Shown here: positions 1 to 43,773 of the stretch, in pieces
Layout of the letters: each line of letters opens with the position of its first letter
Numbering within the stretch: the first letter of the stretch is position 1
IMG/VR virus record: IMGVR_UViG_3300032288_001804
Span: 32,428-96,427 of that record
Strand: one strand, 5' to 3'
Length of the DNA stretch: 64,000 nt
DNA from: a virus
Program-made: the position numbers and the translations under genes
Notes under the pieces: model-generated
The model's database searches: none
What the model was told of the DNA's origin: nothing
The model's input: only the letters and a program-made list of their open reading frames with translations

Positions 1-3000
1 GTAGCTAACGGAGAATTTTCTAAAAATGCTTTACGCTTTAGCCAACGTTCATCTATTTTTTTAGCTGTTGGCTCAACAAACTCCCAAAGAGTATCTGTTA
101 AGTTTTCACCATATACATATAGTGCAGCTTTTTTACCTCTCTTTGAAGCCTTTTCAATTTCTGATACAAGCTTTTGAAGATCTGATTCTTCTGTAACACC
201 AAGGTTTTCTAAGTCATTAGTAATTTTATCAGCTAGTTCTATAAAAGAATCTAGATAATCACTAAGATTTTTAACACGATAAATACTAGTTTCAGATACA
301 CCAAGGTTTTTAATCTCCTCAATTCTACCAGCAATCTTTTTAGAAATCATATTTAATTGCTGAAGACTGTTAACAAATGCTATAGCAAGCTTTCTATTTT
401 CTTCTACAAGATCTTTAATATGTCTAGTTCTATTAGACTGGTAATTACTAAGAGTAGAAGTAATATATGCAAGATCCCTACTATCGTCAGTTGTTAATAG
501 GAGGGCAAGTTCCTGGTACTCTTCTTTAGTGGTAGCTTGAAGCTGATCACTAAATAGTTTGTACATTGAATCAATAGTATTTTTAAGTTGGGCATGTGTC
601 TTCTTAGCAGTCTCATCATCAACCGCATTATCCAACTCCTTAATGAAATCATTTATTTCTTTAGCGTATTGTACAGCATCCTGCTCTAAAGATTCTGCAG
701 TACCTATTGATGTATCTATATTAAACTTCTCGGATAGCATTTCATTTGCTAAATCCATAAAAGAAGTATTAACTCCTAGGTCACTAAGCTTAGGTCCAGC
801 ACCAAATAGTTTTCTAAAGAACTTTTTAATTTGATAAAGTATATTAGAAATCATTTCGCTGAATGAATTCGGCATAGGTGTGCTAGAAAGCTGAGCCTGT
901 GCTGCTATAGTCAACGCATGTACAATAATTTCTTCTGAAAATCCTTGTGGATCACCTTCAAGTTCAGGGTATTGCTTTAAAAAGTTTTCTTGTAAACCTA
1001 ATTTACCTAATTCAGACCAAGCCTTCTTAGCTAGTTTTTGAAATAACTCTGGATTTTCTTTTGCTAAGTACTTTACAAAAGGGTGAGCAAACTCGTGAAA
1101 TAAAGTCTTTGTACTTAATGCACCATCTACTATATATACTTTTCCATTATAAAAGAATGCTGGTGCATTATTATAAGGAGCATTTGTATTCTTAGTAAGT
1201 TCTATTGCCTCATCTTTACTAATAAATTGAACCTCAGGTTCACCAAACACATTTAGCATGTTCATACTAGCTGCTAAGTTTTTTACAACTTGCATTGCTT
1301 GAACATGTTCTGATTGCTCTTGAGTTAATGTATTTGATAATAAATCATTTATTGCCTCATTATCTTCTTCATAAGTAAGGCTTATCATATCATCGATAGC
1401 TTCAATTTCCTTGATAAACCACGCCCTATCTATACCATTTTCCTGAGAACTAGGTGAGTTAGGTTGTATAGGTATCGGAGTTTTAAGTACTTTTATGTAA
1501 TACTTTTGAGGTCCGTTTCTTAAATCATTCTCCTCTTTTACAACATCTAAGTAGCGTATATTACCATTAAGTCTGTTGTAGGCATTAACCTCATTTATAG
1601 CATTGGTGTAACCACCTTGCGATAAATACTTTTTGTTATATATGTTTGTGTCACCATTCAGCTTCATAAGATGTTTCTTAAACTGAGCTGGTGTTAAATC
1701 ATAAATGTTTTTATTATACTGCGGAGTATCTGTTGCTATATCTACAATGGCGTCATTGCTAAATGCAACTAGATATTGACTATCCGAGAACATTGTATAG
1801 TCAAGTCCTCTATAACCTCTATCTTTAAGAAAATTAAAGAAGTCATTTTGAATAGCTAATCCTTCTGGAGAATTATCAAGTATATTGAAATCAGTACCAG
1901 TTTGTTTTGTAAACTCAGATCTAAGTGCTCTATACTCTTTAGCGTCTCCTTGTAAAAATCCTTTAGTATCTACACTTACTTGTCTTACATTTTTACCGTA
2001 GTCTTTTGCCTCTGCTTTATCAACAGTAAAATAGTTAACATCTCTATTGTCTAGAGTATTATATCCTTGATATACAGTTTTAATGTCATCATTAGTTTCT
2101 TCAGTTTCCTGTATAGTATCTTCTATAAAAGAAAAATATCTGAACCCTGGAGCATTAAACTTATAAATGTCTTTCTTAAATGGGGCAAAGTAAATTAAGT
2201 CCATGATATCTTTACCACGGCCCATATTTATTTTTGCTTCAAAGATTTGCTTCCAGTCTTTCCAGTAGTTATCAAATATTTCTGGATAGTTACCTTCTCC
2301 AGTTCTTAAAAAGAAATCTAAAACGTATCTCTTAGGTCTGGTTTCACCAGTTTCTTCATCAATCTCAAATGCTGTAGGATGTTCAATATACCCGGTAATT
2401 GTAACACTTTCACCCTTTTTATGGTCACGTCCTATAAATGCAGTTTGGAATGTCCATGATGGAAATATGTTTTTTAGATTTTTATACCAAGATTGATCTT
2501 CCAAAAATGGTATGATCTCTTCATTAAATTTATTACGACCTAAAGCTGAACCAACACTTGATCTACGCTGCATGTAACCTAGACCTTTGGTTTGAATCCA
2601 GTTTAAAAATTGTTGAGCATTTGCTTCTTTTCTAAAATGATCTAGTGTAATAACACCATCAATATCATGTAAGTCTTCACTAAAGCTTCTATATGTAGCA
2701 CCGTATCTTCTTAATACTTGTGAACCAGATAACTTATAGGCTTTACCCTCAGGATCTAAAGAGTTAAATAGCTTTTGTAATACATCTGCTGCAAAAGGAT
2801 CTGCAGATAATGTAGTGTAATAGTTTTTTTGTTCTAGTAGATTACCCTTTTTGTCATAGAGCATGCCATCGCGGACCTCTATACCACGCATCCACTTTTT
2901 GAAATCCTTCTTATAGATATCATCTACTAAATCAAAAAGTAAATCATTAAGCTTTTCAGCATTGTACTTAGTAAAAGGTTTACCATGTATTGCTTTATGT

Positions 3001-3872
3001 ACGAAGTTGTATATAGCAGCTAAAGCTGTTTTAAGAACTGTTACTGCATAAGGGCTTTTAAAACCTTTTTTCTCAAAGAAAGATTTATCAATATCTGGAT
3101 TTTCAAAGTCTACCTTCTCACGTAAATCTGGTCTATAGTTAAGTAAACCTTCTGTAATAAACTCAATAATAACTTGTTTATGAGCCCAAGCGTTTTTAGG
3201 TGCACCTCTACGCTCTGAAGGGTCATCAACGGTTTCTTCAATGATCTCTAAATCAGCTTGTTGAACAGCATTGTTTTTAGTTAGGGTATCATATTTATCA
3301 TATAATTCTTCATACTTATTCCAAAGCTTAATGTTAAACCATAGGTCTTTGGCTATTTTAGACTTTCTACCTAAAAATGTATAAGCAATATTAGCAGTTT
3401 GTTTTGCTAGCCCTTTATCAGAAAGATTTTTTGGTATCGCTAGGAGTTTCTGGAGCATATCAAAAGCTGCAACAGGGGGGCCTAATTCGCCTTTATCCCA
3501 TCTTCCTGCTGTACTCATTTGCTCTGCTAAACCAGTCCACTCTTGGCTACCTTCTTCAATAATATCAATACGTAGTGATCTTATAAAATCATATAAGGAA
3601 TCTCTAAACTCTTTTTGTTGACCTTCAAACTTTTGATAAGCCTTAAGATTACCCTTAAAGTTTCTTACCTTAAACTTTTTAAGATCTTGTCTTTTAGCTT
3701 CATAGTAGTCTCTGCGTTCTGGATAGGCTTCTTGTAAAGTATCTAAAATAGCAAAAGGATCAATTAAAGAACCTTTATCTTCAGTAAGTAGTAAATAATT
3801 ACTTACATCATAGTCCCCTAACAATCTTCTTGCTGCTTCTAATGAAGGATTAAAAATTTGACAACTAGCCAT
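1..3872 (-). CDS. Giant virion cargo polyvalent protein, truncated by the window edge (>1290 aa): degenerate zincin, nucleotidyltransferase, ADP-ribosyltransferase-like and HExxH zincin domains
   Basis: Not in the ORF track. Translated by hand from ATG at 3872 (MASCQIFNPS…); the frame stays open to position 1. Motifs: LSGSQ…DLHDIDG (~2660-2735), AKINMGRGKDIMDL (~2195-2237), VYQG…YFT…DRGYRGLD…YLVAF (~1760-2075), TLFHEFAHP (~1080-1106). Starts 3 nt after the RNAP stop. Confidence 0.9.
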   Translation of the reverse strand, partial: MASCQIFNPSLEAARRLLGDYDVSNYLLLTEDKGSLIDPFAILDTLQEAYPERRDYYEAKRQDLKKFKVRNFKGNLKAYQKFEGQQKEFRDSLYDFIRSLRIDIIEEGSQEWTGLAEQMSTAGRWDKGELGPPVAAFDMLQKLLAIPKNLSDKGLAKQTANIAYTFLGRKSKIAKDLWFNIKLWNKYEELYDKYDTLTKNNAVQQADLEIIEETVDDPSERRGAPKNAWAHKQVIIEFITEGLLNYRPDLREKVDFENPDIDKSFFEKKGFKSPYAVTVLKTALAAIYNFVHKAIHGKPFTKYNAEKLNDLLFDLVDDIYKKDFKKWMRGIEVRDGMLYDKKGNLLEQKNYYTTLSADPFAADVLQKLFNSLDPEGKAYKLSGSQVLRRYGATYRSFSEDLHDIDGVITLDHFRKEANAQQFLNWIQTKGLGYMQRRSSVGSALGRNKFNEEIIPFLEDQSWYKNLKNIFPSWTFQTAFIGRDHKKGESVTITGYIEHPTAFEIDEETGETRPKRYVLDFFLRTGEGNYPEIFDNYWKDWKQIFEAKINMGRGKDIMDLIYFAPFKKDIYKFNAPGFRYFSFIEDTIQETEETNDDIKTVYQGYNTLDNRDVNYFTVDKAEAKDYGKNVRQVSVDTKGFLQGDAKEYRALRSEFTKQTGTDFNILDNSPEGLAIQNDFFNFLKDRGYRGLDYTMFSDSQYLVAFSNDAIVDIATDTPQYNKNIYDLTPAQFKKHLMKLNGDTNIYNKKYLSQGGYTNAINEVNAYNRLNGNIRYLDVVKEENDLRNGPQKYYIKVLKTPIPIQPNSPSSQENGIDRAWFIKEIEAIDDMISLTYEEDNEAINDLLSNTLTQEQSEHVQAMQVVKNLAASMNMLNVFGEPEVQFISKDEAIELTKNTNAPYNNAPAFFYNGKVYIVDGALSTKTLFHEFAHPFVKYLAKENPELFQKLAKKAWSELGKLGLQENFLKQYPELEGDPQGFSEEIIVHALTIAAQAQLSSTPMPNSFSEMISNILYQIKKFFRKLFGAGPKLSDLGVNTSFMDLANEMLSEKFNIDTSIGTAESLEQDAVQYAKEINDFIKELDNAVDDETAKKTHAQLKNTIDSMYKLFSDQLQATTKEEYQELALLLTTDDSRDLAYITSTLSNYQSNRTRHIKDLVEENRKLAIAFVNSLQQLNMISKKIAGRIEEIKNLGVSETSIYRVKNLSDYLDSFIELADKITNDLENLGVTEESDLQKLVSEIEKASKRGKKAALYVYGENLTDTLWEFVEPTAKKIDERWLKRKAFLENSPLA

Positions 3873-3875
3873 CTT

Positions 3876-6800
3876 TTAGCATTTATTGAGTTCTTGTATT
3901 TTATTTAAGATATCTTCACGAGTTACTCGTATGAATTTTTTAGGTGCCACAACTTCATAGTTCTTGTTCTTGTACCCAAATTCTTCGTAAAGCCTCTTAG
4001 ACAAATATACGAAAGTTTTAGGGGCTTTTGCCCTCTTTTGGTTTACATTTTCACCATTAACATCAGCACCAATCATGTATTGCCCATAGCCAGCAGCATT
4101 CCAGAATATCTTATTATCGTAATCTTTAGCTGCAGTCTTAAGAGCTTGAATACTATTCTCAATAGCTTTTACATTTAAATCGTAGTTATCATCATTCATT
4201 TGCTGACTTACAACATCTTGATAGCCCAATTTACTTGTTAAGCCAAATGAGTTTGTATGCTCTTGTGAAAGTGCAAATACTGAGTCATTTGTTTCTAAAG
4301 CTTTAGCAGTTGGATTAGCTGCGCCATTATACACAAACAAGTAATTTTTTCTATCTTTAAGAAGTTGGTTTATGGCTAGTTTAATGTCTACTCCTTCAGG
4401 TGCCTTTTCTACAATGAAACTTGGGCTTTGGTAGTTATCTCTAAATGTTTGCACTGTACCAAATGATCCAGTAAGATCTGCTGCAGGATTTTTAGAAGCT
4501 TTCCACAAAGGTTGATCTAGGGTATAGTTTCTAACTTTATATCTACTAGCTGTATTCTTATATGAATTAACTGTACTAAACTTATTAAAGTAACTATTAA
4601 CAAGATTCCAAGTCATTAACTTATTAGCTTCCATATAGTTAAGCATGCTTTCTAAGATTGGAGTCAATCTTGTATCCGGCATGATTTGTCCTATACCATA
4701 CTCCCCTTTAGAGTTAAACCCTGTAGTAAACATGGTATATATAGGTAAGTTGCTGAAGAACTTTGAAATCTCCTGAGCCTCGCTCGAGGTCATGTTAGCA
4801 GTTTCAATTAAGTTATATGGGTCCATTAACTCAACTAAGTCTTCGTGGAATCTATTTATTCTATCCGCATCTAGCTTACTAGACTTAAATTTAATAACAC
4901 GCTCTTTAGTTTTTGCTTCATCAGCAGTTAAGAAGTCTAATACTTTATACTTCTGTACAAGATCAGGATACTTCTCTTTGATATCAAGAAGTCTTTTTGC
5001 ATATGACTTAGTAGGACTCTTTAAAATATAGTACTGGTTAAATGTATTATCCAAAGCCATATCTCTTAAGGTATGCTCATATGCAAAAGTTGTAGCTTCT
5101 TTTTCTAACTCGGCCTCTGTAAAGTCTTCATACTTAGCAGCTGTAAAATCTTTTTTATACTGGATATAGTCATCTCGTTTAATGATTTCAGATACTGGTA
5201 TTGCATTTCTTAAGTACTCACGCTCCATTACATATCTACCATATTCGCGTATGTTTTGGAACATAGTTGATCTAATTGCACCAAATGCAAATGGTAGTTC
5301 TGGATTAGTAATATTAATGTTTTCTTTACCGCTATTAGATTGTAAGTTTTCAAACTCTTCTACCAATTTTTGCTTATCAAAATACATCATTGGTATAGTA
5401 GTCTTGTCTTTTAACTTAACGTTTTTAACAAATACCGATACAGGAGACTTAGTTGTTGGCTTAAGTTTTACTGCCTTAGATGCAACTTGCAAACTTTTGT
5501 AATACTTAATAGAGTCAAGGTCCAAATTACGCATGTAGTTCTGGAACATAAACATTACCAAGTCATTTCTGAAGTTAGAAATAAAAGATTCTTGGTCACC
5601 AAATGTATCAGAAACTGTATCCTTAAAGCCTTTACTTCCTAACTTTTTAAGTAAATAATCATTTACCAACTTAGAGTCTCTAATGGTAAATAGATTCTTA
5701 TAGATATCAGCCATAAATTCTGATATACCAAAGCTTGATATAGATGAGTCGTCTAGGATCTTATTGATAACGTCATCTCCTAATCTTTCATCTTCACGTA
5801 ATTGGTCAGCTTGATATTGTCTCAAGTTAGTCTCAAATAAACTTGCTGCAACTTGTGTATCTAAATTGGTAGTACGCTTAACTGCAGTAATTACTTTAGA
5901 CATATCTTCTATATCTAGGAAGTGTAATAACAATGCTAGCTGATCCGTGCTTTCAAAATCAAGTTCATCTTGTAAGTGATCTTCAAAGTATTGTTGATTA
6001 AAGATTTGATCTTTTAATGATCCTGCAATAGCTGTTGCTGCGTTTTTAATTCCTTTTGAGTAAAGTACTACATCACCATCATCATTAGTGTCTGTATAAG
6101 CTAACATTTCTGGGAAGTTCATAAGAACTTTTCTACGCGCTTCACTTCTAAAGAAATTTGGGTTTGATAATTCAATACCCAAAGGTCCTGCGTATGCCGA
6201 TCTAGCTTTTTTAACTTCTGTAATATATTGACGTATAATAGGTTGTGATACAAAGTAAGCAGCTTGTCTAATAGGTACACCAGCTTGAACCATTAATAGT
6301 AATGCTGGAGCTACAAAGTTGTTACCTTGAATATCAAAGATCCACGGATCTTTAGCAATATCTACCCAACCATTGATAAGTTGAGAAATAACATCTGATA
6401 CTTTGTTTATACCATCTGCATCATATAAATTACTTAATGATATAGCAGGACCGTCTGGAGTTAGTAATGTGTTATGCGGCAAATAAATAGTTTGCTCTTT
6501 CATAACTTTATTACCCTTACTATCCTCATCAATTTTATAACTAGGTTGTAAATAAGCACCAACAGTATTAAAGATTACGCTATAGGTATTGTCTACGGCA
6601 CCTTGACCTAGAGTTCTCTTACCAATGCTATTAGAACCATGCTTATAGATATTATATTCTATTTCAAATATTCTAGTACCTTTAATTTTATCACCTCTTT
6701 CAGTAAATACATTTTGTAAAGAGTCGTATGGTCTTACTTTAGAAGCAAGCTCCTGTGCAATAGGTAATACAATATCAGTTGCATTAGGTGTGATAAGATC

Positions 6801-9800
6801 TACATAGTTACTCTCTAAAGAAAGTATATCCATGATGTCTGTGATAACATCATTTTGGAAATCCTCTGCTATAGATACTGAGCCATCTTCATTTTTGGTA
6901 AGCTTATACATTAAAGTGGTAAGCTTATCAATGTCAAAGTCACCTCCTGATTTAGCTACAATTTCTGCTGGAAGTACAATTTGATTACTACCTTCTGGTA
7001 AGAACTCATATACTTCCATAAACTCCATAGAGTTTAGACCTTGCACAGGAATACGCACACCAGCTAAAGAAACAAGCTTGCGATTATCATCTTCATTTAA
7101 CCAGCTTTCATCTTTAAGAAGTTGGTTAAGAGCTTGAAGACGAGTAAGTGATTGCCCTTTTCTTGCAGCATCCTCAATCATCTCAGTAACCTTTGGTAAG
7201 TCTAAAAGCTTTTTATATTCTCCTTGAATACCAATCTTAATTTTCATGGCCATTGTCTTACCATCTTTTTTTCTATAGAATGGTAAGTCGTTAGTGCCTA
7301 ATACTTCTAAACGCTCCTTAGAGTCTTTGTTAGCATTAAAGAAATCACGGTTAGTATAACCAGCACCTGACACTTGAACTAAAGCCTCTCCTGTAACCTT
7401 TTGCTTAATAAGCTTTTTATTAATAATAGATACAAGAACCTTTTCAATTTCAGCCGCTGCTAGAGATACATCTAGAGAAGATTTTAATTTACCTTCTTTA
7501 TTAAGCTTAACAAAATCTAAGTGGTGCTCAGCAAGTTCACGCTTGGTTAATTGACTTTCTATATAAGCAAATAACTTATCTAAAGGTCCTGTTGGTTTAC
7601 CATTTTCATACGTCCAACCTATTTCATCTAATAACTCTTGTTTCTTTTGAGCCATAAGATTTTCAAGGTTGCCTTGAAAACGTTTAATTAAGCTATAGTT
7701 TTTAGATTCTCTACGCTTAGTTCTATCATCTCCAATTTTATTCCAATTAGCAATCCTAACTTCTTTAGGCATATCTGGTTGAAAGTCTGTAGGTACACCA
7801 TTCTCCATTAGCCCAGACTCAATAAGTTTACGCAACTGAGTAGGGAATGTAGTTTTATTCTTATACTTAGGTGCAATCTCTAATTGCTTCTTGAAATACT
7901 TTAAGAATATATCGTTAGGAGTAAACATGTACCCGTCTTCTGTAAATGCCAACTCACGGTTAGTGGCATCTTCAGAATTTTTATAAAACTTATCTGGTTT
8001 ACCATTAGGTGTAATAGTAGCAATCTTAGATCCTGATCCAAATAAAGCATAGTCTACCTTTTGTTCAACCATCTTATTGTGAAGCTTTTCAAGATCGGAG
8101 CCTTCAATAGTAGATGGGATTAATGGTACCAATGAGAATTTATGGAACGCTGTAAGTGGTAAGCCATTTGTTGCAAGTGGTCCCCAGTATTGCATTTTAA
8201 GTACAGGGAAGAATTCTTTAATTCTAGTCTGATCAATATTCTTCTTAGCCAATACATCTCTATATAATAACTCTTGTGTATCTGACCATGCACCCATCAT
8301 AATGCTAAGTGCTTTATAACCATCAAAAGTTATCCAACCCTGAGCATCCCCTTCTTTCATTTCACGGTATGGCTTAGCACGTTCGCTAACAATTTTATTA
8401 ACTTCCTCGTCTGTTAATTTACCGCTTTTATAACCAGGTGAGTTTTTAATAGAAGTTCTAATATCATCTTCAATAGCAGCATAGTATAATGATTTTGTTT
8501 CAACATCTTCTAATACTGCACTTCTAAATTGTTCACCATAAGACTTATCTACACTTTGACCTGTATACCAGCTACTTGAACGATAGCTAGCTTTATCAGG
8601 GGCAAATACAACATTATTTAAATAACGTAACATTGCAGGGTCTGTTCTTGGAATAATACCACCGCTATTAATACCGGCGTTACGTTTTTGAAACTCCTCC
8701 TTAGCCATGTTATACAAAGCTGGATCACCATGATAGAGCAATACAGTTTCTACATTATGTATAAAACTATTATAAACATGCGTTTTAATTGCAATGTTTC
8801 TAGTTTCGTTTCTACTTAGCCTTTTAGCTTTTGCATCATCACCAGCATAGATCTCTTGAATCTTATCATGCATAGTGTTATCTATATACTCAGCCTCTAC
8901 TAGTTTTTCAGTAAACTCATTTATCTTATTTGCAAAGTATACTTTTATAACATCATCTGCTATTCTCTTTTTAAGGTCACTTGATTCTGGTAAATCTAAA
9001 TAGTCACGTAGTCTACCACCATACTCAGCAGGAATATTCATTAACTCCTCCTGAAGCTCAGGTCTAATCATGTCTGAGAATATCACAAACTTTTGACCCT
9101 CTACACCATAAGTAGATTTACCTACTGGTATCATACGCTCAACAGCATTAGCTGGTAAAGCCTTTACCCTATTGATACGATCAAGCTCGGCCTCTAAATA
9201 TCCTAGTAAGATATTAAACGCTGCAGCTTCACCATTAGTACCAAGTGCAAACTCTCTAGGGTTTACATAATACTTTCTATTAGATAAGTGATATACAAGT
9301 ATTGTAGATTTATCTGCAGGGGTAGTTCCCATAGGTAAACCATGAATAACACTTACGTGAAAATCTGTAAGACGCTTTGTAAATTCATCTGAGTCTGATG
9401 CAGCAATACCATTATTAGCTTCACCATTAACAGTAAATGAAACACCTGCTAGATTATTAATATCTATGGTAATCTTTTCATTAGATCCAACCTCTTCTTT
9501 AATAGAACGCTTAGGACCATTAGGCTTTGACATGTCAAAAAGCTCATGGATTGTAATAAGGCGCTTTCTCTTAGGATCTGGATTATTACTTACAAACGGA
9601 TTACGTAGTCCAGACAAGTGATTCATCTCAGGCTTTGCAGTAAGAGTATTAAAATCAGGTGCTTCCTGTAATTCTCTAATCATTTGAGTAATGGTATTGT
9701 TTTCCATAAACTCATACTGCGCATCACCAGCTGCATTTAATACCATGAAGTCTGAATAATCATCGGTATATGTAGCTTGAATCTTTTGTAAAGAGTTGTA

Positions 9801-12800
9801 GAATCCGCGTAAGCCTTTTAGAACTTCACCATTGTCCCTAATCTTTTTAGTAGGGTTAATCAAGTCATCAATTTTTCTTACAATGACTATATTCTTTGGC
9901 TTGTTTTCAGCAATAGCCTTATCATTATGAAGCTTTATAGCCTCAATGCGATCAAAGATAACTTTAGCTGGATTAGGAATCATCTTATTTAATGCGGCAA
10001 CAATTTTAGATTTGTTGTCAAAATAAATTCCTACATCTTGTAAAAACTTAATTCTATTAAGATTGCTATATTGCGATACATAGTCGTTATATATAGCATC
10101 AATATCTAAGAAGTTATTACCATTTATATCAGGTTTGATATACTTAGTAGTAACTGTTTTAAATCTATCATTCCAGTCACGGCCTATTTTAGCATCTGCT
10201 GTTGAAGCTCCTCCCACTTTAGCACTATACTCATACTCAGTTCTAATAATATTACCTTCTTCATCTCGCTCAAGTACATTAGTAGTTCTATCTACAACTA
10301 AAGCAACAAGTGGTACACGAGTTTTATTGAATGCATCATTAAACTGTGTCCATAAGTTTTGAGCATTAGCCGTCATCTGTGTATCAGGATTGCCAAGTTT
10401 AATTAGCAATTCTTGTATAAACGGATAGTCTTCTTTTGAATCTTGTAAACGAGTATACATTTCTTGTGGGCTATTAGCACCCTGAAGTATTCTAGTTATA
10501 CGATTCCAAGCAATACCAAAATCCATTAACGTGTTAAAGCCTAAATTGTTTAGAGCTTTATCACCATTAGACTCTAAAGCATGTAAGCTTTTAATTAAAT
10601 AGATTACACTCTCGTTAGCAAGATCAAGTAGTGATGCTTCATTACCTCTTCTATCATGACCATCTCTACTCTTAAATTCACCAGTATCTTCAAATAGTAA
10701 TACTGCTTTTTCTGCAGCTGTAACAAAATCTGAGAAGCGAGACTTCTTATTGTAATAAGCAATAATACCTTTATCACTTTCAGTATCCCAGTTATCTGTT
10801 GCCCATACTAATGCATCTTGCTGATTTAAAAGTCTTTGCTTTTCACTATCTGTTGTAGCATTTGCTATTTGGACATCTAGTGCTTCAATAGCTTCTTCTA
10901 TTTTAGTCTTAGCATAAGTTAAAGCTGCATCTCTACCTTTTGGTATGGATAGGAGAGCCGTTGTGTAATATGCTTTATCGCCGGAACCATCTTCGGTTAC
11001 ACCAATTCTTAGGTTAACAAAATCGGATACTAATGAATCTAAAGTATCCACTAATTCCATAGAGTTACGCATAGTAAGTAAAGGTGTACTATAGTTTTCA
11101 TCTATAGACTCAGCCCCCTTATTCATTACTTGCTGTCTAATCTCTGCAGGTAAGTTTTGCTCAGAGTAACTATACTCAGTTAATCTTCCAAACTGTAACT
11201 TGTTATAAATATCATTAGCATAAGTCAACGCTTCCTGGTTTAAAACCATGTCGTTGTAACTCTGTGCCCCAAATAATTCAAGGAAGAAATCAAGAATTTT
11301 CCTAAAGATACTACGTTGTGTAACATCTTTAATTTGCATTTTACCACCAGATAGCATGTAAGCTCTAAACTCTTCAGCTAGGAACTCCTCAAGTTCAAGA
11401 TCACTTGCTTTAGCAAAGTCTCTATATACACCTTTGTAAGTTCTAAAATTACCGCTACGCTTTCTAGTTTTTTCATAAAGCTCTTGTCTTTGAGCATCAG
11501 TCATGAACATACGGGTAAACCCGTGCCATGCCTCGTGATATAAGTCTGAGTAATTAGCGCCTTCAAAAAGTATAATAGCATTTTGATACCACTTTGCAAC
11601 TGATGTAGGGTCATAAGTATTAACCTCATTCATTAAATTTTCAAGTGGGAAGTAGTTTTTAAATATGCTATTATCAAACCACTTCTTAGCTTCTTCTAAC
11701 TTAGCCTTTAATTCGTCTGGACTAAGCTGTGCAATATCAAAGCGTAATCCGTATTGTCTAACAAAATCTCTAGCTTGTTTTTTATTTCTAGAAAGCCCTT
11801 GGAATTCATCATCCTCAAGGCTATCATTCTTAACAATCTCATTTATAACTTCCCAAGCTGATTTCTTAGGTGCTTCTTCAACTTTTTCAACCGGAGTTTC
11901 TTCAGTAGTTTTAGCAGCTTTCTTTTTAGTAGTCGGTTTAGTAGTAGCAGACTTCTTACCTTTATTTGTTTTAGTAGGTGCAGCTGCTTTCTTTTTCTCG
12001 TAGTTTAAGATCTTCTCAAAAGTTTCCGAGCTAGGGTCAAACTTAATATGACCATTGAGCCCTACTATTTGATTATCTTTATTAAGTGGTATATTGATAT
12101 AAAAGTTATCTTTAATGTAATCTACATAGTTAACTTCATTTTTTGTTTTAAGCCACTCACCATCTTTGTCATTGATTGTGAAGTTGTCAAATAAACCACT
12201 AATGTTACCAAGTACATTTGATTTAATATGAAGACGTCTCTTATAGACTTTGTAATAGCCAGTACCTTTAGTTCTTTTTCTAGCTATAGGATCTTCAATA
12301 ATAGTATTCTCGTCTAACTTATCTACGTAAGCTTTATCTTTTTGATTATTTATAACGGTTTTACCATTAAGAAATCCAGCTTTTATTTCTTTCTCAGTAA
12401 CCTCAGTTCCTGATACATAAAACTTTTCAAAAAGATGTTTATATATAGCATCTTCTACTGCAGCTTCATTTTCTAAATCAATGCTTTTTCCAGATAGCTT
12501 TAACGTAGGACCAAGTCCTTTAATATAGTTATATTCAATTCCTGATTCGGGTAAGTATATAAATTCAGACAAATATTTGTTTTTCTCATCCACACTAAGC
12601 TCACGCTTATCACCTAATTCATTTACTTCAACTACAGGTCTAGCAATTAATCGAGCAAGTTTTCTAGCAATATCACTAGACATTCCTCTACTAATAATAG
12701 GGATGGCTCCATTAACACCATTAATGTAAAATACTTGGTTAGTTTTAGTTTGTCCAGAAGCCTGGTAATTTTTTTCAGGTACGATAACTGGCTTAAATAC

Positions 12801-13856
12801 TTGATTAATAAAGTTAACTTTACTAATTGGAGTAAGCAAGTTATAGTCTACATACATAGCACCTAAAGAAGTTCCAGAAATAGGAACTGTAACCCAGTTC
12901 TCTGGTTTGTTAAAATTCTCTTTAGTGTATGCAAATAAGTTTGTCATAAACTTAATCTCGGCGTCAAGAATTTCTTGAGCCTTTTCTACAGATATACCTT
13001 TACGTTTAGCAATATCTTCTGGAGCAAGTACACGTTTTCCTATATTCTCTGCAGCAGCTCTACCAGATCTAGCTTCAAAGTAAATAGGTTTACCATTGTT
13101 TTTATTTGTAACGTTATAATCTTTGTCAAAGAATAATAGATTACCACTTGCATCAGTAACAGCTAATAAAAGATTGTCAGCTCTTGAGTAAGCTGTAGTA
13201 TCATATATATCATCCTTCTTTACTTGAGTCTGTAATGCACCTCTTGGTATTGCAGTTAAGTGATAACCAAAATTATTACCCTTAGCATTGTTAGTTATAT
13301 GTAGGATAAAATCGTAGTAAAATGCTTTTGCTGGGTCTGGTACCCGGTCTTCAAGTTTAGTACCTGCGTTAACTAAGTTTTGCAAACCTGTTGTAGAAAA
13401 AAGGCTATCAACAATATAGTTAAATGATGTAGCAAGTTCTAGTTTATTACCTGCTGGTAATTCGCCACTTGTAGATTGCTCAATTGAAGATTTAACTTCA
13501 GCTTCAGCAATATCTTCAGCGGCTTGTCCGGTTCCTAAATACTGTTGAACTTTAGCATAGTCTTCAAACTCTATCATTTTCTCAGTAACAAAGTTTACGT
13601 TAAACCCTGTTTTAAGTAAATGCATAGTCACGTTGTTGTTAATGAAAGCAGCCTGGCTAACAATACTTGGTATTATTTGAGTATACGCTTCAGTAACTAA
13701 TTGGTCTTCTGTATTTTTAGAAATAAGATCTACAAGATCTCTCATGTAGGTCTCTGGGTTTATCGGAGTATTATTTGAAAATGCTTCATAAAAATCACGA
13801 TATACCATTTGGTAAAGCGAGTCTCTTTCCTTTTGACTTATACTACAGATTGCCAT
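3876..13856 (-). CDS. Virion-packaged single-chain crAss-type DNA-dependent RNA polymerase, with an upstream zincin domain and a C-terminal macro-like domain
   Basis: Catalytic-loop motif RIPVQGLNSM…KSGGDFDIDKL (DFDID ~6927-6941), typical of crAss-like vRNAP such as phi14:2 gp66. Also KRNAG and DAQGW motifs and LYHEAWH…EEFLAEEF (11523-11537). Located in the cargo cluster. Confidence 0.93.
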   Translation of the reverse strand: MAICSISQKERDSLYQMVYRDFYEAFSNNTPINPETYMRDLVDLISKNTEDQLVTEAYTQIIPSIVSQAAFINNNVTMHLLKTGFNVNFVTEKMIEFEDYAKVQQYLGTGQAAEDIAEAEVKSSIEQSTSGELPAGNKLELATSFNYIVDSLFSTTGLQNLVNAGTKLEDRVPDPAKAFYYDFILHITNNAKGNNFGYHLTAIPRGALQTQVKKDDIYDTTAYSRADNLLLAVTDASGNLLFFDKDYNVTNKNNGKPIYFEARSGRAAAENIGKRVLAPEDIAKRKGISVEKAQEILDAEIKFMTNLFAYTKENFNKPENWVTVPISGTSLGAMYVDYNLLTPISKVNFINQVFKPVIVPEKNYQASGQTKTNQVFYINGVNGAIPIISRGMSSDIARKLARLIARPVVEVNELGDKRELSVDEKNKYLSEFIYLPESGIEYNYIKGLGPTLKLSGKSIDLENEAAVEDAIYKHLFEKFYVSGTEVTEKEIKAGFLNGKTVINNQKDKAYVDKLDENTIIEDPIARKRTKGTGYYKVYKRRLHIKSNVLGNISGLFDNFTINDKDGEWLKTKNEVNYVDYIKDNFYINIPLNKDNQIVGLNGHIKFDPSSETFEKILNYEKKKAAAPTKTNKGKKSATTKPTTKKKAAKTTEETPVEKVEEAPKKSAWEVINEIVKNDSLEDDEFQGLSRNKKQARDFVRQYGLRFDIAQLSPDELKAKLEEAKKWFDNSIFKNYFPLENLMNEVNTYDPTSVAKWYQNAIILFEGANYSDLYHEAWHGFTRMFMTDAQRQELYEKTRKRSGNFRTYKGVYRDFAKASDLELEEFLAEEFRAYMLSGGKMQIKDVTQRSIFRKILDFFLELFGAQSYNDMVLNQEALTYANDIYNKLQFGRLTEYSYSEQNLPAEIRQQVMNKGAESIDENYSTPLLTMRNSMELVDTLDSLVSDFVNLRIGVTEDGSGDKAYYTTALLSIPKGRDAALTYAKTKIEEAIEALDVQIANATTDSEKQRLLNQQDALVWATDNWDTESDKGIIAYYNKKSRFSDFVTAAEKAVLLFEDTGEFKSRDGHDRRGNEASLLDLANESVIYLIKSLHALESNGDKALNNLGFNTLMDFGIAWNRITRILQGANSPQEMYTRLQDSKEDYPFIQELLIKLGNPDTQMTANAQNLWTQFNDAFNKTRVPLVALVVDRTTNVLERDEEGNIIRTEYEYSAKVGGASTADAKIGRDWNDRFKTVTTKYIKPDINGNNFLDIDAIYNDYVSQYSNLNRIKFLQDVGIYFDNKSKIVAALNKMIPNPAKVIFDRIEAIKLHNDKAIAENKPKNIVIVRKIDDLINPTKKIRDNGEVLKGLRGFYNSLQKIQATYTDDYSDFMVLNAAGDAQYEFMENNTITQMIRELQEAPDFNTLTAKPEMNHLSGLRNPFVSNNPDPKRKRLITIHELFDMSKPNGPKRSIKEEVGSNEKITIDINNLAGVSFTVNGEANNGIAASDSDEFTKRLTDFHVSVIHGLPMGTTPADKSTILVYHLSNRKYYVNPREFALGTNGEAAAFNILLGYLEAELDRINRVKALPANAVERMIPVGKSTYGVEGQKFVIFSDMIRPELQEELMNIPAEYGGRLRDYLDLPESSDLKKRIADDVIKVYFANKINEFTEKLVEAEYIDNTMHDKIQEIYAGDDAKAKRLSRNETRNIAIKTHVYNSFIHNVETVLLYHGDPALYNMAKEEFQKRNAGINSGGIIPRTDPAMLRYLNNVVFAPDKASYRSSSWYTGQSVDKSYGEQFRSAVLEDVETKSLYYAAIEDDIRTSIKNSPGYKSGKLTDEEVNKIVSERAKPYREMKEGDAQGWITFDGYKALSIMMGAWSDTQELLYRDVLAKKNIDQTRIKEFFPVLKMQYWGPLATNGLPLTAFHKFSLVPLIPSTIEGSDLEKLHNKMVEQKVDYALFGSGSKIATITPNGKPDKFYKNSEDATNRELAFTEDGYMFTPNDIFLKYFKKQLEIAPKYKNKTTFPTQLRKLIESGLMENGVPTDFQPDMPKEVRIANWNKIGDDRTKRRESKNYSLIKRFQGNLENLMAQKKQELLDEIGWTYENGKPTGPLDKLFAYIESQLTKRELAEHHLDFVKLNKEGKLKSSLDVSLAAAEIEKVLVSIINKKLIKQKVTGEALVQVSGAGYTNRDFFNANKDSKERLEVLGTNDLPFYRKKDGKTMAMKIKIGIQGEYKKLLDLPKVTEMIEDAARKGQSLTRLQALNQLLKDESWLNEDDNRKLVSLAGVRIPVQGLNSMEFMEVYEFLPEGSNQIVLPAEIVAKSGGDFDIDKLTTLMYKLTKNEDGSVSIAEDFQNDVITDIMDILSLESNYVDLITPNATDIVLPIAQELASKVRPYDSLQNVFTERGDKIKGTRIFEIEYNIYKHGSNSIGKRTLGQGAVDNTYSVIFNTVGAYLQPSYKIDEDSKGNKVMKEQTIYLPHNTLLTPDGPAISLSNLYDADGINKVSDVISQLINGWVDIAKDPWIFDIQGNNFVAPALLLMVQAGVPIRQAAYFVSQPIIRQYITEVKKARSAYAGPLGIELSNPNFFRSEARRKVLMNFPEMLAYTDTNDDGDVVLYSKGIKNAATAIAGSLKDQIFNQQYFEDHLQDELDFESTDQLALLLHFLDIEDMSKVITAVKRTTNLDTQVAASLFETNLRQYQADQLREDERLGDDVINKILDDSSISSFGISEFMADIYKNLFTIRDSKLVNDYLLKKLGSKGFKDTVSDTFGDQESFISNFRNDLVMFMFQNYMRNLDLDSIKYYKSLQVASKAVKLKPTTKSPVSVFVKNVKLKDKTTIPMMYFDKQKLVEEFENLQSNSGKENINITNPELPFAFGAIRSTMFQNIREYGRYVMEREYLRNAIPVSEIIKRDDYIQYKKDFTAAKYEDFTEAELEKEATTFAYEHTLRDMALDNTFNQYYILKSPTKSYAKRLLDIKEKYPDLVQKYKVLDFLTADEAKTKERVIKFKSSKLDADRINRFHEDLVELMDPYNLIETANMTSSEAQEISKFFSNLPIYTMFTTGFNSKGEYGIGQIMPDTRLTPILESMLNYMEANKLMTWNLVNSYFNKFSTVNSYKNTASRYKVRNYTLDQPLWKASKNPAADLTGSFGTVQTFRDNYQSPSFIVEKAPEGVDIKLAINQLLKDRKNYLFVYNGAANPTAKALETNDSVFALSQEHTNSFGLTSKLGYQDVVSQQMNDDNYDLNVKAIENSIQALKTAAKDYDNKIFWNAAGYGQYMIGADVNGENVNQKRAKAPKTFVYLSKRLYEEFGYKNKNYEVVAPKKFIRVTREDILNKIQELNKC

Positions 13857-16800
13857 TATTCACAACGATTTTTAAGATTTTTTAAAAAGTTATTTTGCGC
13901 TTGAGCTGTACTCATCTTCTCAGCCTCGCTAGCAAGTTTTGCCTGAGCATCCTTATCATTAGCTAAAGTTTCCGCATTAGACTTTGATTCATTCATAACT
14001 TCTTCAGTTTCAGGTTTTGGTGCAGGAGCTTTCTTCTTTTTACCAGGTGAGACAACCATCTTATCTATATCATCCACAAGCGACTCATCTAGAACTTCAC
14101 CTATAGCATCCTCGTCATTCAAAGGTACAACAGTAACTTGTTTTTTACTAACTTTTTTAACCTTAACTATACGACCATCATTAAGTTTAATGATCATACC
14201 TACTTCAGGTTTTGCTTTAGTTACTTCTTCCGTTTCAACAACTTCAGGCTCTCTAATAACATCTTCAACAGTAATACCATATAACTTAAGCTCGTCAACT
14301 ATTTTCTTAATTCTTTGGTTTAAATCATTGATTTTAACTAAGTTACCTGAAGCTATAGCCGCAACTTGTTCACCTCTTAGCTTAGATAATTTATCAGTAA
14401 GGGCATCAATTCTTTTTTGCTGCTTAGCTTTTTCTGCTTCAACCAATGCATCCTCTTCTTCTTGAGTTCTAGTAACTTCTGAACCTGCGGGTCTTCCATA
14501 ACCAGTTACTTCAAAGATGTCACGAGATGTATTTAGCTTTAATAGTATGCTAGGCTTTTCTTCAGTACCTGTATTTAAACTATTAAGTGATCTAACTACA
14601 CCATTAGAATTAGTAGAAAGCTGTATAGGTAGGATGTAAATGTCTGTAATATCTTCCCCGGTAGCTTGGCGAATTAATTCACGGTATGCTAACTGCTGGA
14701 TAGTGTGCCCACGCTCATATTGGAATTCATCTGCAGGGTCATTATAACTATCAACAAGATTTCTTGTAGAAGTCTTTAAGTCAATAATACCTAAGTTACC
14801 TTCTTTATCATATACAAGAAAGTCAATTTCCCCAGCACGTGGTCCTGCAATATCACCAAATAAAGTTGGAATACTACCTATTATCTTAAGACCCTTACCG
14901 TTTAGATATTGTTTAACTTCAACCATTGTGTTGTACAATGCACTTGGAAAAGTCGCACTATACTGCATCATTTTCTCACCACTCTCGGAGTCAACCTTAC
15001 CAGATAACTCTTCTAGTTTTTGTTTTACTTGCTCTGGTGTAGTTAATTTACCGTCAAAGAAATCACGGAAAATGGGGTCAAGTACATTACCACGGTTAGC
15101 TGCAGTTGTATTAGTAAACTTCTTGGCTAAGATATCCCTAACGATATCACTAACACGAGCTACTTTATTACCATCCTTTTCATATCCACCTTCTACTTTA
15201 GTAACTCCACTTGCTTTAAAGCTATCGCTAAGTTTCTTAATTAAAGCTTGTACTTTTTTATCAGCCTCAGCAAATTCAGCATCTGCTTGGAACTGAGCTA
15301 GTGCTTGCTCTTTTGTTGTACCTGTAGAGTGTAAAGCAGTAACTTGATCTTCAGTTAATCCATTTATATCTTCTGGCAACCAACCCCTTGCAAATAAATC
15401 ATCTCTAATCTGCTGAAAATCAAGTGGTTTAGGTTCTTCTGGTTTTTCTTCAACAGGAGCTTCAGTTTTACTTTTTTTCCAATTTTCAATAATTGTAACT
15501 GCCTTTGGGTTAGTTTGAACAAAGTTTCTAAAGCCCATGTTGCTTTCTTTTATCTTGGCAACGGCTGATACTTTTTTATAAGCATCATAAAGTAAATCGG
15601 AAAGATCCTTAGGTAGATTATCAACAGGAGTGTTAATGTCTATCTTATCTATATCCTCTTCTGTAACTATTTCATCACTAGGTATAACCTCAGGAATTTC
15701 TTCAGTAACTTTTTCACGTTCGCTGCGAGGCTCAATACCAAGTAAAGGACTAATGAGTTTATCATATCTATCATAGATCTCATTGTACATCTGTAACTCT
15801 AATGGAGACAACTTACTTTCATCTACATTACCTTCCGTATCTCTATAATTATCTATATTAGGTATTGCTTTACGTAAGTCTTCTCGCTCTTGAGCTCTTA
15901 GCTTAGCTACTTTTTCTTCATTAGTTTCTTCAGGTATAACCGCTTCTTCTTCTTCAATAGCAACTTCCTCTAACACCTCATCCTTTGGTTCTTCAACAGA
16001 TTCCATAGCAGGAGACTTTCTACGCTCACCCGGCTTTTGTAAGTAGTCCGTTTGATCAATAGTTAATCCTACTAATGCTACAGCTTGCTTTAATACATTG
16101 TCATCAGAACTTTTTATCTTAAACGCGTTCTTAATAAACTTTTTAATAGAGTTTATTACTTGAGTAAATGTACTTTCTTTTGGAGTTCTGGTAGATTTAA
16201 CTTGAATAAGTAACGCTTGAAACTGTGGGTTAGTCATTACTTCATTAATAAAACTAACAGGTGATGACATACCTAATGGTATTTTACCACCAAAATCATC
16301 AAGTAAAGATGGATCAGTTTGAGCTGCTGCTTTTATAGCATCCATCATTTCTTCTACCTCAGCTGCAAATTCTTCATCTTGTAAAAAATCTGTAGTCAAA
16401 GACATCATCATACCTTTTAATACAAGGTACTCTGCTCTATAGTCATTGTCTTTATAATTAGAAGACGCATATCTAAAATCAATAATGAGCCCGTTTTTAG
16501 GATCATGTGAAATAGGTACGCTATGCTTAGGTCTAATGGTAACTTTCATGTCACCTTTGTTTAGACTTAAAATCTTTTGAGCTAATTTCTTTTCTGCTGA
16601 AGTTGCAAACTTACTATTAATAATAAAATTGCAAAGGTCATCCATAGATACTACGGCTTCTCCATAAGCATCAATACCTAACTCATTAGCATAATCTTGT
16701 ACGGTGCGATTGTCTTGACCATTCTTTTTCTTATGTGCAAAACTAAAATACTCTTCTAGTAAACCAAGTTCTGCAGCAGCTTGGCGGATAGGTCTTTCTT

Positions 16801-27186: not shown

Positions 27187-27197
27187 CCTATAGATAT

Positions 27198-29915: not shown

Positions 29916-29982
29916 AATGCTAATATACTCATTATACTATATAAGATACTGATTTCTTTAATAATTTCCTAGTTATCATAAC

Positions 29983-40895: not shown

Positions 40896-41450
40896 CTATA
40901 ATACACCTAATGTAGTCACTGCAATAGTGGCTCCAAATGAATAATCTGTACCAGAGTTGCAATAACTTTCTATTTTAATATAGTATGTTGTTGCAGGGGT
41001 TAAGTTAGTTATAGTATAACTTGTAGCACCATACACACTTGAAGGTGAGAATGGACCTACAGGATTAGTAGCTATTGTAAAATTGTAATAATCAGCTCCT
41101 GTATCTTCCCAACTGATTATAAGCGTTGTTGTACCAATGTAACTTGGATGTACATTAATAGGAGGTAAGCAGTCTGTGTTTAGAGAGTTAACAGACATAG
41201 CCTGATACGCATTCTCTAATGATGCTCCAGCGGGTAATGCTGGATAACTATCTCCATTTGCTAATAGTTTTCCAAAGTTAATTATACTATAGTTACCATG
41301 TTTTACACAGGTATCCTGAATAGTCTCATAGCATGGAGTTGGATCCGGGCATTTGATATCAGGGGGACAAGTATATGAAGGTGCAGTTGTAAGGGGGAGA
41401 TCCTTACAACCGCATTTATTATCTGAACAATTACAAGTTTTGCAAGCCAT
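40896..41450 (-). CDS. Cys-rich fibre/decoration protein with a C-terminal fibronectin type III domain
   Basis: Cys-rich N-terminus. TTLIISW…TSYTITNLTPATTYYIKIESYC FN3 signature. Confidence 0.65.
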   Translation of the reverse strand: MACKTCNCSDNKCGCKDLPLTTAPSYTCPPDIKCPDPTPCYETIQDTCVKHGNYSIINFGKLLANGDSYPALPAGASLENAYQAMSVNSLNTDCLPPINVHPSYIGTTTLIISWEDTGADYYNFTIATNPVGPFSPSSVYGATSYTITNLTPATTYYIKIESYCNSGTDYSFGATIAVTTLGVL

Positions 41451-41460
41451 AGTTTATATT

Positions 41461-42978: not shown

Positions 42979-43007
42979 TATATATAATTTACAAAAAAAT
43001 TTACGTT

Positions 43008-43772: not shown

Positions 43773-43773
43773 A

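What the first reader, a model, noticed from the sequence alone, without database searches (positions are those of the whole stretch)
3861..13870. Terminal-cysteine 'daisy chain' linking the giant ejected proteins head-to-tail
Seen: by my reading, the 3326-aa RNAP has only two Cys, residue 4 (MAIC) and the last residue (…LNKC). The upstream 2063-aa protein ends …NRCE and has only one other Cys. The downstream giant starts MASC and has no further Cys in the ~1290 aa visible. So over ~6,700 aa, four of five Cys sit at facing termini, in gene order. The genes are also tightly coupled (TAATG overlap at 13856; 3-nt gap at 3873-3875). Known: proteins ejected through the periplasm can be Cys-depleted (N4 vRNAP has none). 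Inference: the C-terminal Cys of protein n bonds to the N-terminal Cys of protein n+1 (disulfide, or a shared metal ion). This would give one reducible chain that is packaged stoichiometrically, threaded in order through the tail and released in the reducing cytoplasm.
Basis: partly seen in the sequence, partly recalled or inferred. Interest (0 to 1): 0.9.

Follow-up and report, generated by a model that had tools for sequence, protein, structure and literature searches.

The report
Cysteine-tipped chain of giant phage cargo proteins
Three giant proteins of this crAss-like phage, with its particle-borne RNA polymerase in the middle, have almost no cysteine except one at each end that faces the next protein. 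Relatives gain such a pair where a gene is split and lack it where genes are fused, which suggests the proteins are tied end to end, probably by disulfide bonds that nobody has tested.

Summary
In 8,127 residues the three giants hold five cysteines. Four sit at the inward-facing ends: upstream protein C-end, RNA polymerase both ends, downstream protein N-end. The full 2,738-aa downstream protein has only Cys4.

This is not chance.
- In 76 distinct related loci, 130 of 131 gene junctions carry a cysteine on both facing termini. None carries just one.
- The outer ends of the row never carry one (0/52 and 0/63).
- Extra genes in the row (574-754 aa) have exactly two cysteines, one at each end.
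- Upstream+polymerase fusions have no cysteine at the fused junction and keep the C-terminal one.
- Cultured phi14:2, crAss001 and Rudgehvirus, and uncultured Suoliviridae and Intestiviridae, obey the same rule. crAss001 does so even though its gene order is broken.

Pairing of C-end(n) with N-end(n+1) is therefore well supported. The bond chemistry and a role in ordered ejection are inferred.

The closest precedent is the cryo-EM disulfide Cys1715(gp27)-Cys5(gp26) in cyanophage A4, whose proteins show no detectable homology to these. I found no paper describing this for Crassvirales. This scan has noted the same pattern before, in 112 findings from at least 104 genomes.

The parts
13856..20047 (-). 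First chain member ('up', 2063 aa), in the same position as phi14:2 g067 and crAss001 gp47. No N-terminal Cys.
   Evidence: Family of 31 homologues: every full-length member has a Cys in its last 1-8 residues and none has an N-terminal Cys. Weak PD-(D/E)XK nuclease match at residues 1649-1821, below the Pfam cut-off.
13862..13864 (-). Codon of Cys2062, second-to-last residue of 'up' (ends NRCE). Proposed bonding partner of Cys4 of the polymerase.
   Evidence: junction sequence; conservation; junction statistics.
16631..16633 (-). Codon of Cys1139, the single internal Cys of 'up'.
   Evidence: present at positions 1112-1145 in relatives of 63% identity or more, absent in distant family members. 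Not explained by the chain model.
3876..13856 (-). Second chain member: 3326-aa virion RNA polymerase (crAss gp66 family), with Cys only at residues 4 and 3326.
   Evidence: Of 97 homologues (25-96% identity, 2.0-5.2 kaa), nearly all have a Cys at positions 3-6 and in the last 1-8 residues, with few or no others.
13845..13847 (-). Codon of Cys4 of the polymerase (MAIC).
   Evidence: invariant column C4 in alignment A1.
6927..6941 (-). Catalytic DFDID motif (residues 2306-2310) of the polymerase.
   Evidence: Invariant D2306, D2308 and D2310 in A1; profile hit to PDB 6VR4 over this region.
3879..3881 (-). Codon of Cys3326, last residue of the polymerase. Proposed bonding partner of Cys4 of the downstream giant.
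   Evidence: The AlphaFold model of the last 300 aa puts it 2 residues after a terminal helix (residues 287-298 of the model, pLDDT about 80) on a confident alpha/beta domain.
1..3872 (-). Third chain member ('down'), equivalent to phi14:2 g065, with an invariant HExxH zincin motif. It is 2738 aa in full and only its first 1290 aa lie in the window. Its single Cys is residue 4.
   Evidence: In a family of 41 homologues, 40 have a Cys near the N-end (39 at positions 3-5, 37 of them as the only Cys) and none has a C-terminal Cys.
3861..3863 (-). Codon of Cys4 of 'down' (MASC).
   Evidence: invariant column C4 in A2 and A4.
2073..3608 (-). N-terminal module of 'down' (about residues 90-600, with an LSGS...HDIDG motif). 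In other phages this module is a separate gene with a Cys at each end.
   Evidence: 41-48% identity to the free-standing proteins L046 19107-20831 (574 aa, Cys 3 and 572) and L055 17950-19701 (583 aa, Cys 4 and 581). Alignment A4.

Best explanation
The giant cargo proteins of crAss-like phages are joined head to tail after translation. The one cysteine near the C-end of each protein bonds to the one cysteine at positions 3-6 of the next protein, most likely as a disulfide. In this phage that would make a three-link chain: upstream protein, virion RNA polymerase, then the zincin-bearing downstream protein. The chain would be the covalent equivalent of the single fused polyprotein that other crassviruses encode.

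Removing almost all other cysteines would leave only the intended pairs able to form. Which end meets which would be set by non-covalent docking of the terminal segments.

Shown here: the cysteine rule, its conservation, and its tracking of gene splits and fusions. Inferred: that the bond is a disulfide, that it forms inside the particle, and that it keeps the proteins together during packaging and ejection until the reducing host cytoplasm releases them.
For: 1. This phage has 5 Cys in 8,127 aa, and 4 of them sit at the inward-facing ends.
2. All three protein families keep the polarity up[-,C], RNAP[C,C], down[C,-] down to 22-25% identity.
3. In 76 distinct IMG/VR loci, 130 of 131 junctions have Cys on both facing ends, 0 have it on one end, and the outer ends have none (0/52 and 0/63). 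Of 287 Cys in 516,271 residues, 266 are terminal.
4. Splits create pairs. L049 has a 602-aa protein (Cys 3 and 601) that matches the N-terminal part of other polymerases. L046 (574 aa) and L055/L082 (583 aa) match residues about 90-600 of this phage's own downstream giant and carry a Cys at each end. L050 has a 754-aa insert with Cys 3 and 752. These arise in separate clades of a polymerase tree.
5. Fusions lack pairs. The N-terminal part of P0091, P0093 and P0097 hits an 'up' profile at E 1e-20 to 1e-28, and P0086 matches 'up' by BLAST. None has a Cys at the fusion point and all keep the C-terminal Cys. L096 is 4320 aa with its only Cys as the last residue, and the next gene starts MFC. Suoliviridae cr1_1, cr118_1, cr4_1, cr10_1, cr60_1, cr130_1, cr272_1 and cr7_1 behave the same way.
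6. Cultured phages follow the rule: phi14:2 g067, g066 and g065, crAss001 gp47, gp50 and gp49 despite the inverted gene order, and Rudgehvirus jaberico.
7. There is a direct structural precedent for such a bond. In cyanophage A4, cryo-EM shows a disulfide between Cys1715 of gp27 and Cys5 of gp26 (PMC12002296). These are the only Cys in those 1717-aa and 1114-aa proteins.
8. crAss001 particles do contain disulfides, including the gp57 dimer, which replaces capsid auxiliary protein gp36 at the portal vertex (PMC10172136).
9. Recombinant gp66 is active and was crystallised in DTT/TCEP, so the cysteines are not needed in oxidised form for catalysis.
Against: No experiment or structure shows a bond between these proteins. 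The crAss001 and phi14:2 papers I could read do not mention one.

Particles assemble in a reducing cytoplasm, and gut crassviruses live without oxygen, so an oxidant is not obvious. A crude CxxC motif scan found no thiol oxidase or thioredoxin-like protein in this phage.

'up' keeps a conserved extra Cys1139. Oafivirinae giants have 13-39 internal Cys yet still keep the junction pair, so a proteome purged of cysteine is not required for the pairing.

The 'terminal' Cys can lie up to 9-11 residues from the C-end.

The loci compared are related to one another, so the 130 of 131 count is not 130 independent events. The independent evidence is the handful of splits, fusions and rearrangements.
Confidence: 0.6

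Rival explanations
1. The facing cysteines do meet, but they are bridged by a metal ion (for example Zn, Cu(I) or Fe, with further ligands from nearby Asp, Glu or His) rather than joined as a disulfide.
For: Pairwise occurrence at junctions fits any two-thiol clasp. A metal bridge could form in a reducing cytoplasm or an anoxic gut. Acidic residues often flank the C-terminal Cys, as in the DPFKC and NRCE endings.
Against: Two thiols alone make a weak site, and no conserved His or Cys lies nearby (contexts). The only solved analogue shows a disulfide. A single four-Cys site is excluded because the Cys count follows 2 x junctions, that is 2, 4 or 6.
Confidence: 0.12
2. Each terminal cysteine bonds to something other than the neighbouring cargo protein. 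Candidates are a portal, capsid-interior or tail protein, or a second copy of the same protein (C-C or N-N homodimers).
For: crAss001 virions have many structural disulfides. The copy numbers of the cargo proteins are unknown.
Against: This does not explain why the outermost N-end and C-end never carry a Cys (0/52 and 0/63). It does not explain why a split always creates two Cys and a fusion is always missing two. [C,C] proteins forming homotypic bonds would polymerise.
Confidence: 0.08
3. The polymerase closes on itself (Cys4 bonded to Cys3326), and the upstream C-end bonds to the downstream N-end.
For: The Cys counts in three-member rows allow this pairing.
Against: Fused up+polymerase proteins have no Cys at the position of the polymerase N-end but keep the C-terminal Cys, and the next protein keeps its N-terminal Cys. 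Intestiviridae polymerase giants have the N-terminal Cys and no C-terminal one. So the two polymerase cysteines are not an obligate pair.
Confidence: 0.03
4. The cysteines have a role that does not involve bonding, such as a recognition or processing signal at protein ends, or a by-product of translational coupling sequences.
For: The genes are tightly coupled (TAATG overlap and 3-nt gap). The terminal sequence contexts are conserved.
Against: crAss001 and cr85_1 keep the pattern although the 'up' gene is on the other strand, so coupling sequences cannot be the cause. The Cys position floats (N-end 3-6, C-end -1 to -11) while the surrounding residues differ between clades. That pattern points to selection on the thiol itself.
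Confidence: 0.05

Closest known systems
Cyanopodophage A4 (Anabaena phage A-4L) ejection proteins gp27 and gp26: disulfide Cys1715-Cys5 in the pre-ejectosome (PMC12002296)
   Same: The genes are adjacent. Protein n has its only Cys 3 residues from the C-end on a terminal helix, and protein n+1 has its only Cys at position 5. Both are otherwise Cys-free internal or ejected proteins, and cryo-EM shows the bond. The polymerase C-end here is also predicted to be a terminal helix just before the Cys.
   Different: A4 has one link between two proteins arranged in a fivefold ring, not a chain of 2-3 links, and includes no RNA polymerase. There is no detectable homology (hhalign probability below 1%). 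The paper treats the bond as a local stabiliser and does not describe a rule conserved across a phage order.
RNA-polymerase cargo block of cultured crassviruses: phi14:2 g067-g066-g065 (g066 = PDB 6VR4) and crAss001 gp47, gp50, gp49
   Same: These are the same protein families, found in virions by mass spectrometry. They show the identical Cys pattern: phi14:2 has 4 Cys in 5,398 aa, all terminal, and crAss001 has gp47 Cys2339, gp50 Cys5 and Cys2404, and gp49 Cys5.
   Different: The papers I could read do not mention these cysteines or any link between the proteins. Proteins in this window are 15-90% longer. In crAss001 the upstream-type gene is on the other strand.
Single fused polyproteins (upstream + polymerase) of Suoliviridae and some environmental crassviruses, presumed to be cleaved (Drobysheva et al. 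preprint)
   Same: Same modules in the same order. The chain proposed here would be a covalent string equivalent to these polyproteins.
   Different: In the fusions the join is a peptide bond and there is no Cys at that point. Here the modules are separate genes with cysteine-tipped ends.
Schitoviridae (N4, DEV) ejection operon gp50-gp51-gp52
   Same: A giant virion RNA polymerase ejected together with partner proteins. Strong cysteine suppression is published (PMC11445570; N4 has zero Cys).
   Different: These have no terminal cysteines at all. The relay between the proteins is described as non-covalent (PMC13434306).

Membership tests
Crassvirales virion RNA polymerase (phi14:2 gp66 family) | Catalytic DFDxD motif in a two-barrel core | tested here: met
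   GGDFDIDK with D2306, D2308 and D2310 invariant in 22 diverse homologues.
Crassvirales virion RNA polymerase (phi14:2 gp66 family) | Sequence homology to the solved gp66 structure | tested here: met
   Profile A1 against PDB hits 6VR4 at E=1.7e-44. The single sequence alone gave nothing. tblastn of the core finds phi14:2 g066 and annotated crass polymerases.
Crassvirales virion RNA polymerase (phi14:2 gp66 family) | Packaged in the virion and ejected into the host | not testable with these tools
   Inferred from orthologues found by mass spectrometry in phi14:2 and crAss001 virions.
gp65-like polymerase-associated zincin protein ('down') | HExxH metalloprotease motif, and a gene directly after the polymerase | tested here: met
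   H926, E927 and H930 invariant in A2. Gene position. No Pfam or PHROG family reached threshold.
A4-type disulfide between consecutive ejection proteins | A lone Cys near the C-end of protein n and a lone Cys at about position 3-6 of protein n+1, in otherwise Cys-poor proteins | tested here: met
   A4 itself checked.
A4-type disulfide between consecutive ejection proteins | An S-S bond actually present in the particle | not testable with these tools
A4-type disulfide between consecutive ejection proteins | Homology to A4 gp27 or gp26 | tested here: not met
   hhalign of A1 and A2 against gp27 and gp26 gave probability below 1%. BLAST gave nothing. So this is an analogue, not a family member.

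The most novel reading that the evidence does not exclude
Crassvirales build their injected cargo as a redox-cleavable, modular 'polyprotein' assembled after translation. Any module, such as the polymerase, a nuclease-like domain, an NTase-like domain or a zincin, can be cut out of a giant gene or inserted into the row as long as it carries a cysteine at each end. Docking of the ends followed by disulfide formation fixes the order and 1:1 stoichiometry. The string then passes through the tail as one thread and falls apart only in the reducing cytoplasm.
Probability: 0.35. Interest if true: 0.85.

Novelty: new variant of a known kind. Interest (0 to 1): 0.75.

Why it matters
Crassviruses are the most abundant phages of the human gut. 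How they store and deliver about 0.7 MDa or more of giant proteins, including the polymerase that starts infection, is an open question. The cargo was invisible in the crAss001 cryo-EM maps.

A conserved cysteine clasp at every cargo junction gives a concrete hypothesis for stoichiometry, packing order and release. It can be tested directly with gels, disulfide mass spectrometry or Cys-to-Ser changes in phi14:2 or crAss001.

It also yields a simple annotation rule:
- true starts of these genes begin M-x(1-4)-C;
- a junction without a Cys pair signals a frameshift or an intron;
- free-standing modules that belong to the cargo row can be recognised by a cysteine at each end.

The A4 precedent suggests that this solution has arisen in unrelated podophages.

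Tried and rejected
No co-fold of the terminal segments was obtained.

Searches that found nothing:
- PHROGs and Pfam on the polymerase.
- Single-sequence phmmer against PDB.
- tblastn of the N-terminal third of the polymerase against phages.
- The search for related loci with P0092 and P0086 in viral contigs. The metagenome scan then gave L096 and L097.
- BLAST of the N-terminal 1500 aa of L096, cr1_1 and cr118_1 against 'up' proteins was not significant. An 'up' HMM hit only P0091, P0093 and P0097. For the other fused forms, 'fusion' therefore rests on the extra ~1200 N-terminal residues and, for L096, the absence of a separate upstream giant.
- Foldseek of the polymerase C-terminal domain model gave no significant PDB match. 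The best hits were RNA 5'-phosphatase and dual-specificity phosphatase folds at E about 0.4-0.8, and these need a catalytic Cys that is absent here.

Papers:
- The Nature version of the gp66 paper is not held.
- The crAss001 paper's peptide tables are not held, so its reduced versus non-reduced mass spectrometry could not be re-read.
- Four literature searches found no description of terminal cysteines in crass cargo.

Ideas rejected:
- Chance (about 2e-10 by my arithmetic, plus the conservation).
- One Zn(Cys)4 knot formed by four termini. The Cys number follows 2 x junctions.
- An obligate intramolecular bond within the polymerase. Fusions and Intestiviridae break that pair.
- Split-intein or native-chemical-ligation chemistry. 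There are no intein-sized segments, and the Cys is never residue 1 after Met removal.
- A lipoprotein-type N-terminal Cys. There is no signal peptide or lipobox.


Full report
WHAT IS THERE

The window is bases 32428-96427 of a 96,427-bp IMG/VR virus record. Three giant ORFs lie head to tail on the minus strand.

| Name | Window coordinates | Length | Cysteines |
|---|---|---|---|
| up | 13856-20047 | 2063 aa | 1139, 2062 (ends NRCE) |
| polymerase | 3876-13856 | 3326 aa | 4 and 3326 (the last residue) |
| down | starts at 3872, runs off the window | 2738 aa in the whole record | 4 only |

'down' ends without a Cys. So there are 5 Cys in 8,127 residues (0.06%), against 1.0% for the whole predicted proteome. 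Four of the five lie at the ends that face the neighbouring protein. By my arithmetic the random expectation for this is about 2e-10.

Further upstream, three proteins of 864, 905 and 1075 aa have no Cys at all. By contrast, a block of five proteins at window 40896-46289 has 5-7% Cys.

IDENTITY OF THE PROTEINS

Neither Pfam, PHROGs nor a single-sequence PDB search recognises the middle protein. An alignment of 22 diverse homologues shows an invariant GGDFDIDK motif and an HExxH motif. The profile of that alignment hits the phi14:2 gp66 virion RNA polymerase structure 6VR4 at E=1.7e-44. 'down' has an invariant HExxH, like the zincin-bearing gp65 of phi14:2. 'up' has a weak PD-(D/E)XK nuclease signal.

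CONSERVATION

Of 97 polymerase homologues at 25-96% identity, nearly all have a Cys at positions 3-6 and a Cys in the last 1-8 residues, with few or no others.
- The 'up' family (31 proteins) always has the C-terminal Cys in full-length members and never an N-terminal one. In the distant members it is the only Cys.
- In the 'down' family (41 proteins), 40 have a Cys near the N-end, 39 of them at positions 3-5. It is the only Cys in 37 of those, and no member has a C-terminal Cys.

I then fetched 80 related loci from IMG/VR and read their ORFs mechanically, taking the first ATG after a stop. In 76 distinct loci:
- 130 of 131 junctions have Cys on both facing termini;
- none has Cys on one side only;
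- the one junction with none (L080) looks like a frameshift inside 'up';
- the outer N-end of the first member (0/52) and the outer C-end of the last member (0/63) never carry a Cys;
- of 287 Cys in 516,271 residues, 266 are terminal.

NATURAL EXPERIMENTS

Splits and insertions:
- In L049 the N-terminal part of the polymerase is a separate 602-aa gene with Cys 3 and 601, and the rest of the polymerase starts with Cys 4.
- In L046 (574 aa, Cys 3 and 572) and L055/L082 (583 aa, Cys 4 and 581), a free-standing gene sits between the polymerase and 'down'.
- In L050 a 754-aa protein with no relatives in the set (Cys 3 and 752) sits in the same place.
- BLAST shows that the 574-aa and 583-aa proteins are 41-48% identical to residues about 90-600 of this phage's own 'down'. 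That stretch is Cys-free here because it is fused.
- The four-member rows fall in different clades of a polymerase-core tree.

Fusions:
- P0091, P0093 and P0097 carry an N-terminal region that hits an 'up' profile at E 1e-20 to 1e-28. P0086 matches 'up' by BLAST. None has a Cys near the fusion point and all keep the C-terminal Cys.
- The metagenome locus L096 has a 4320-aa protein whose only Cys is its last residue, followed by a gene starting MFC.
- Eight Suoliviridae genomes have the same two-member layout, [-,C] then [C,-].
- Oafivirinae giants have many internal Cys, yet the junction pair is still there.
- In Intestiviridae (cr110_1 and the cultured Rudgehvirus jaberico), a zincin protein ending in Cys precedes a polymerase giant that starts M-x-C and has no C-terminal Cys.

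Rearrangement:
- In crAss001 and cr85_1 the 'up'-type gene lies on the opposite strand, but the polarity of the cysteines is unchanged. The rule therefore belongs to the proteins, not to gene adjacency.
- phi14:2 has 4 Cys in 5,398 aa, all terminal.

WHAT THIS MEANS

The number of cysteines equals twice the number of junctions (2, 4 or 6), and both members of a pair appear or are absent together. This fits pairwise contact between the C-end of protein n and the N-end of protein n+1. It excludes a single four-Cys cluster. It also argues against an obligate bond within the polymerase, because fusions and Intestiviridae keep only one of the two polymerase cysteines.

The sequence around the cysteine differs by junction type. 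At the polymerase N-end it is typically C-x-L-N/S. At the 'down' N-end it is C-P-N or C-E/Q-V-K. That difference would allow specific docking of the right ends.

An AlphaFold model of the last 300 aa of the polymerase (35-row alignment, mean pLDDT 71, last 170 aa mostly 80-96) places the Cys two residues after a terminal helix.

WHY A DISULFIDE IS THE LEADING CHEMISTRY

In cyanopodophage A4, cryo-EM shows the C-terminal helix of gp27 inserted into gp26 and fixed by a Cys1715-Cys5 disulfide (PMC12002296). In the A-4L genome these are the only Cys in the 1717-aa and 1114-aa products of adjacent genes. They have no detectable homology to the crass proteins, so this is an analogue rather than a relative.

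crAss001 particles contain many disulfides, including the gp57 dimer, which replaces capsid auxiliary protein gp36 at the portal vertex. Recombinant gp66 is active in DTT, so the cysteines are not catalytic. Cysteine suppression in ejected proteins is documented for Schitoviridae, and N4 gp50, gp51 and gp52 have none. What sets Crassvirales apart is the retained junction pairs.

LIMITS

No bond has been observed. Formation of a disulfide needs an oxidant, and both the assembly compartment and the gut are reducing. Two observations do not fit a strict 'only the intended pairs can form' argument: the conserved Cys1139 of 'up', and the Cys-rich Oafivirinae giants. Ordered threading through the tail and release by reduction are inference only. 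The crAss001 authors say merely that the order of extrusion is probably governed by packing and mutual interactions.

NOVELTY

Four full-text searches and three papers I read turned up no description of this in Crassvirales. This scan has flagged the same pattern before, in 112 findings from at least 104 genomes. I rate it a new variant of a known kind: a multi-link version, conserved across a phage order, of the single A4-type disulfide between ejection proteins.

Noticed in passing
window 20050-24528 (minus strand, 1492 aa); also L021, L022, L032, L051, L063, L065, L067, L068: The protein just upstream of the chain (starts MATY[IL]QG) has exactly two Cys, at 128 and 134 (Cx5C). The same positions recur in many distant relatives, while other relatives have none. 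It has no terminal Cys, so it lies outside the chain.
   Followed up: partly
window 24592-33210 versus window 40896-46289: Three consecutive proteins of 864, 905 and 1075 aa have no Cys and may be further cargo. Five proteins of 184-599 aa have 5-7% Cys and are presumably external tail or fibre parts. Cysteine use in the virion module is sharply split in two.
   Followed up: no
window 16631-16633 (Cys1139 of the 2063-aa protein): An internal Cys conserved at positions 1112-1145 in all relatives of 63% identity or more, but absent in distant family members. Its partner or role is unknown.
   Followed up: partly
window 2073-3608 (residues about 90-600 of the downstream giant); L046 19107-20831, L055 17950-19701, L082 17425-19176: This N-terminal module, with an LSGS...HDIDG nucleotidyltransferase-like motif, is mobile. 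It is fused here, free-standing in three loci, and absent from the roughly 1,850-1,980-aa 'MxxCPN' forms of the protein. No Pfam family matched.
   Followed up: partly
chain ends in 50-63 related loci; here window 20018-20044 and the C-end of the downstream giant outside the window: The free ends of the chain carry opposite charge. Residues 2-11 of the first member are acidic (mean net charge -1.8). The last 8 residues of the last member are basic (+1.5), and the final residue is K or R in 46 of 63.
   Followed up: partly
L089 17812-18103 (cr108_1, NC_055878): The polymerase gene is interrupted inside the catalytic motif: gp054 ends AKAGSD and gp053 starts at YDIDK, about 290 nt later. It looks like an intron and is annotated as two genes. 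No Cys pair marks this false junction.
   Followed up: no
L092 10083-10130 (cr110_1 gp40, NC_055879): The annotated start is probably 14 codons too early. An internal Met gives the usual M-S-C N-end.
   Followed up: partly
L080 1060-8267 and L084 7577-19931: The two exceptions to the rule look like frameshifts. In L080 the 'up' gene is split into 1613 + 789 aa with overlapping frames. In L084 the polymerase lacks its C-terminal Cys and is followed by a 361-aa ORF that ends in Cys.
   Followed up: partly
L098, L099, L101 (cr130_1, cr272_1, cr7_1; Oafivirinae): These giants are read through many in-frame stops (recoded genomes) and carry 13-39 internal Cys. The cysteine purge is relaxed in this subfamily, although the junction pair persists.
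   Followed up: no
window 3879-4388 (last 170 aa of the polymerase): A confidently predicted alpha/beta domain (pLDDT 80-96) with a conserved GYG...TFxYLS...FGYxNP signature and no significant PDB fold match.
   Followed up: partly
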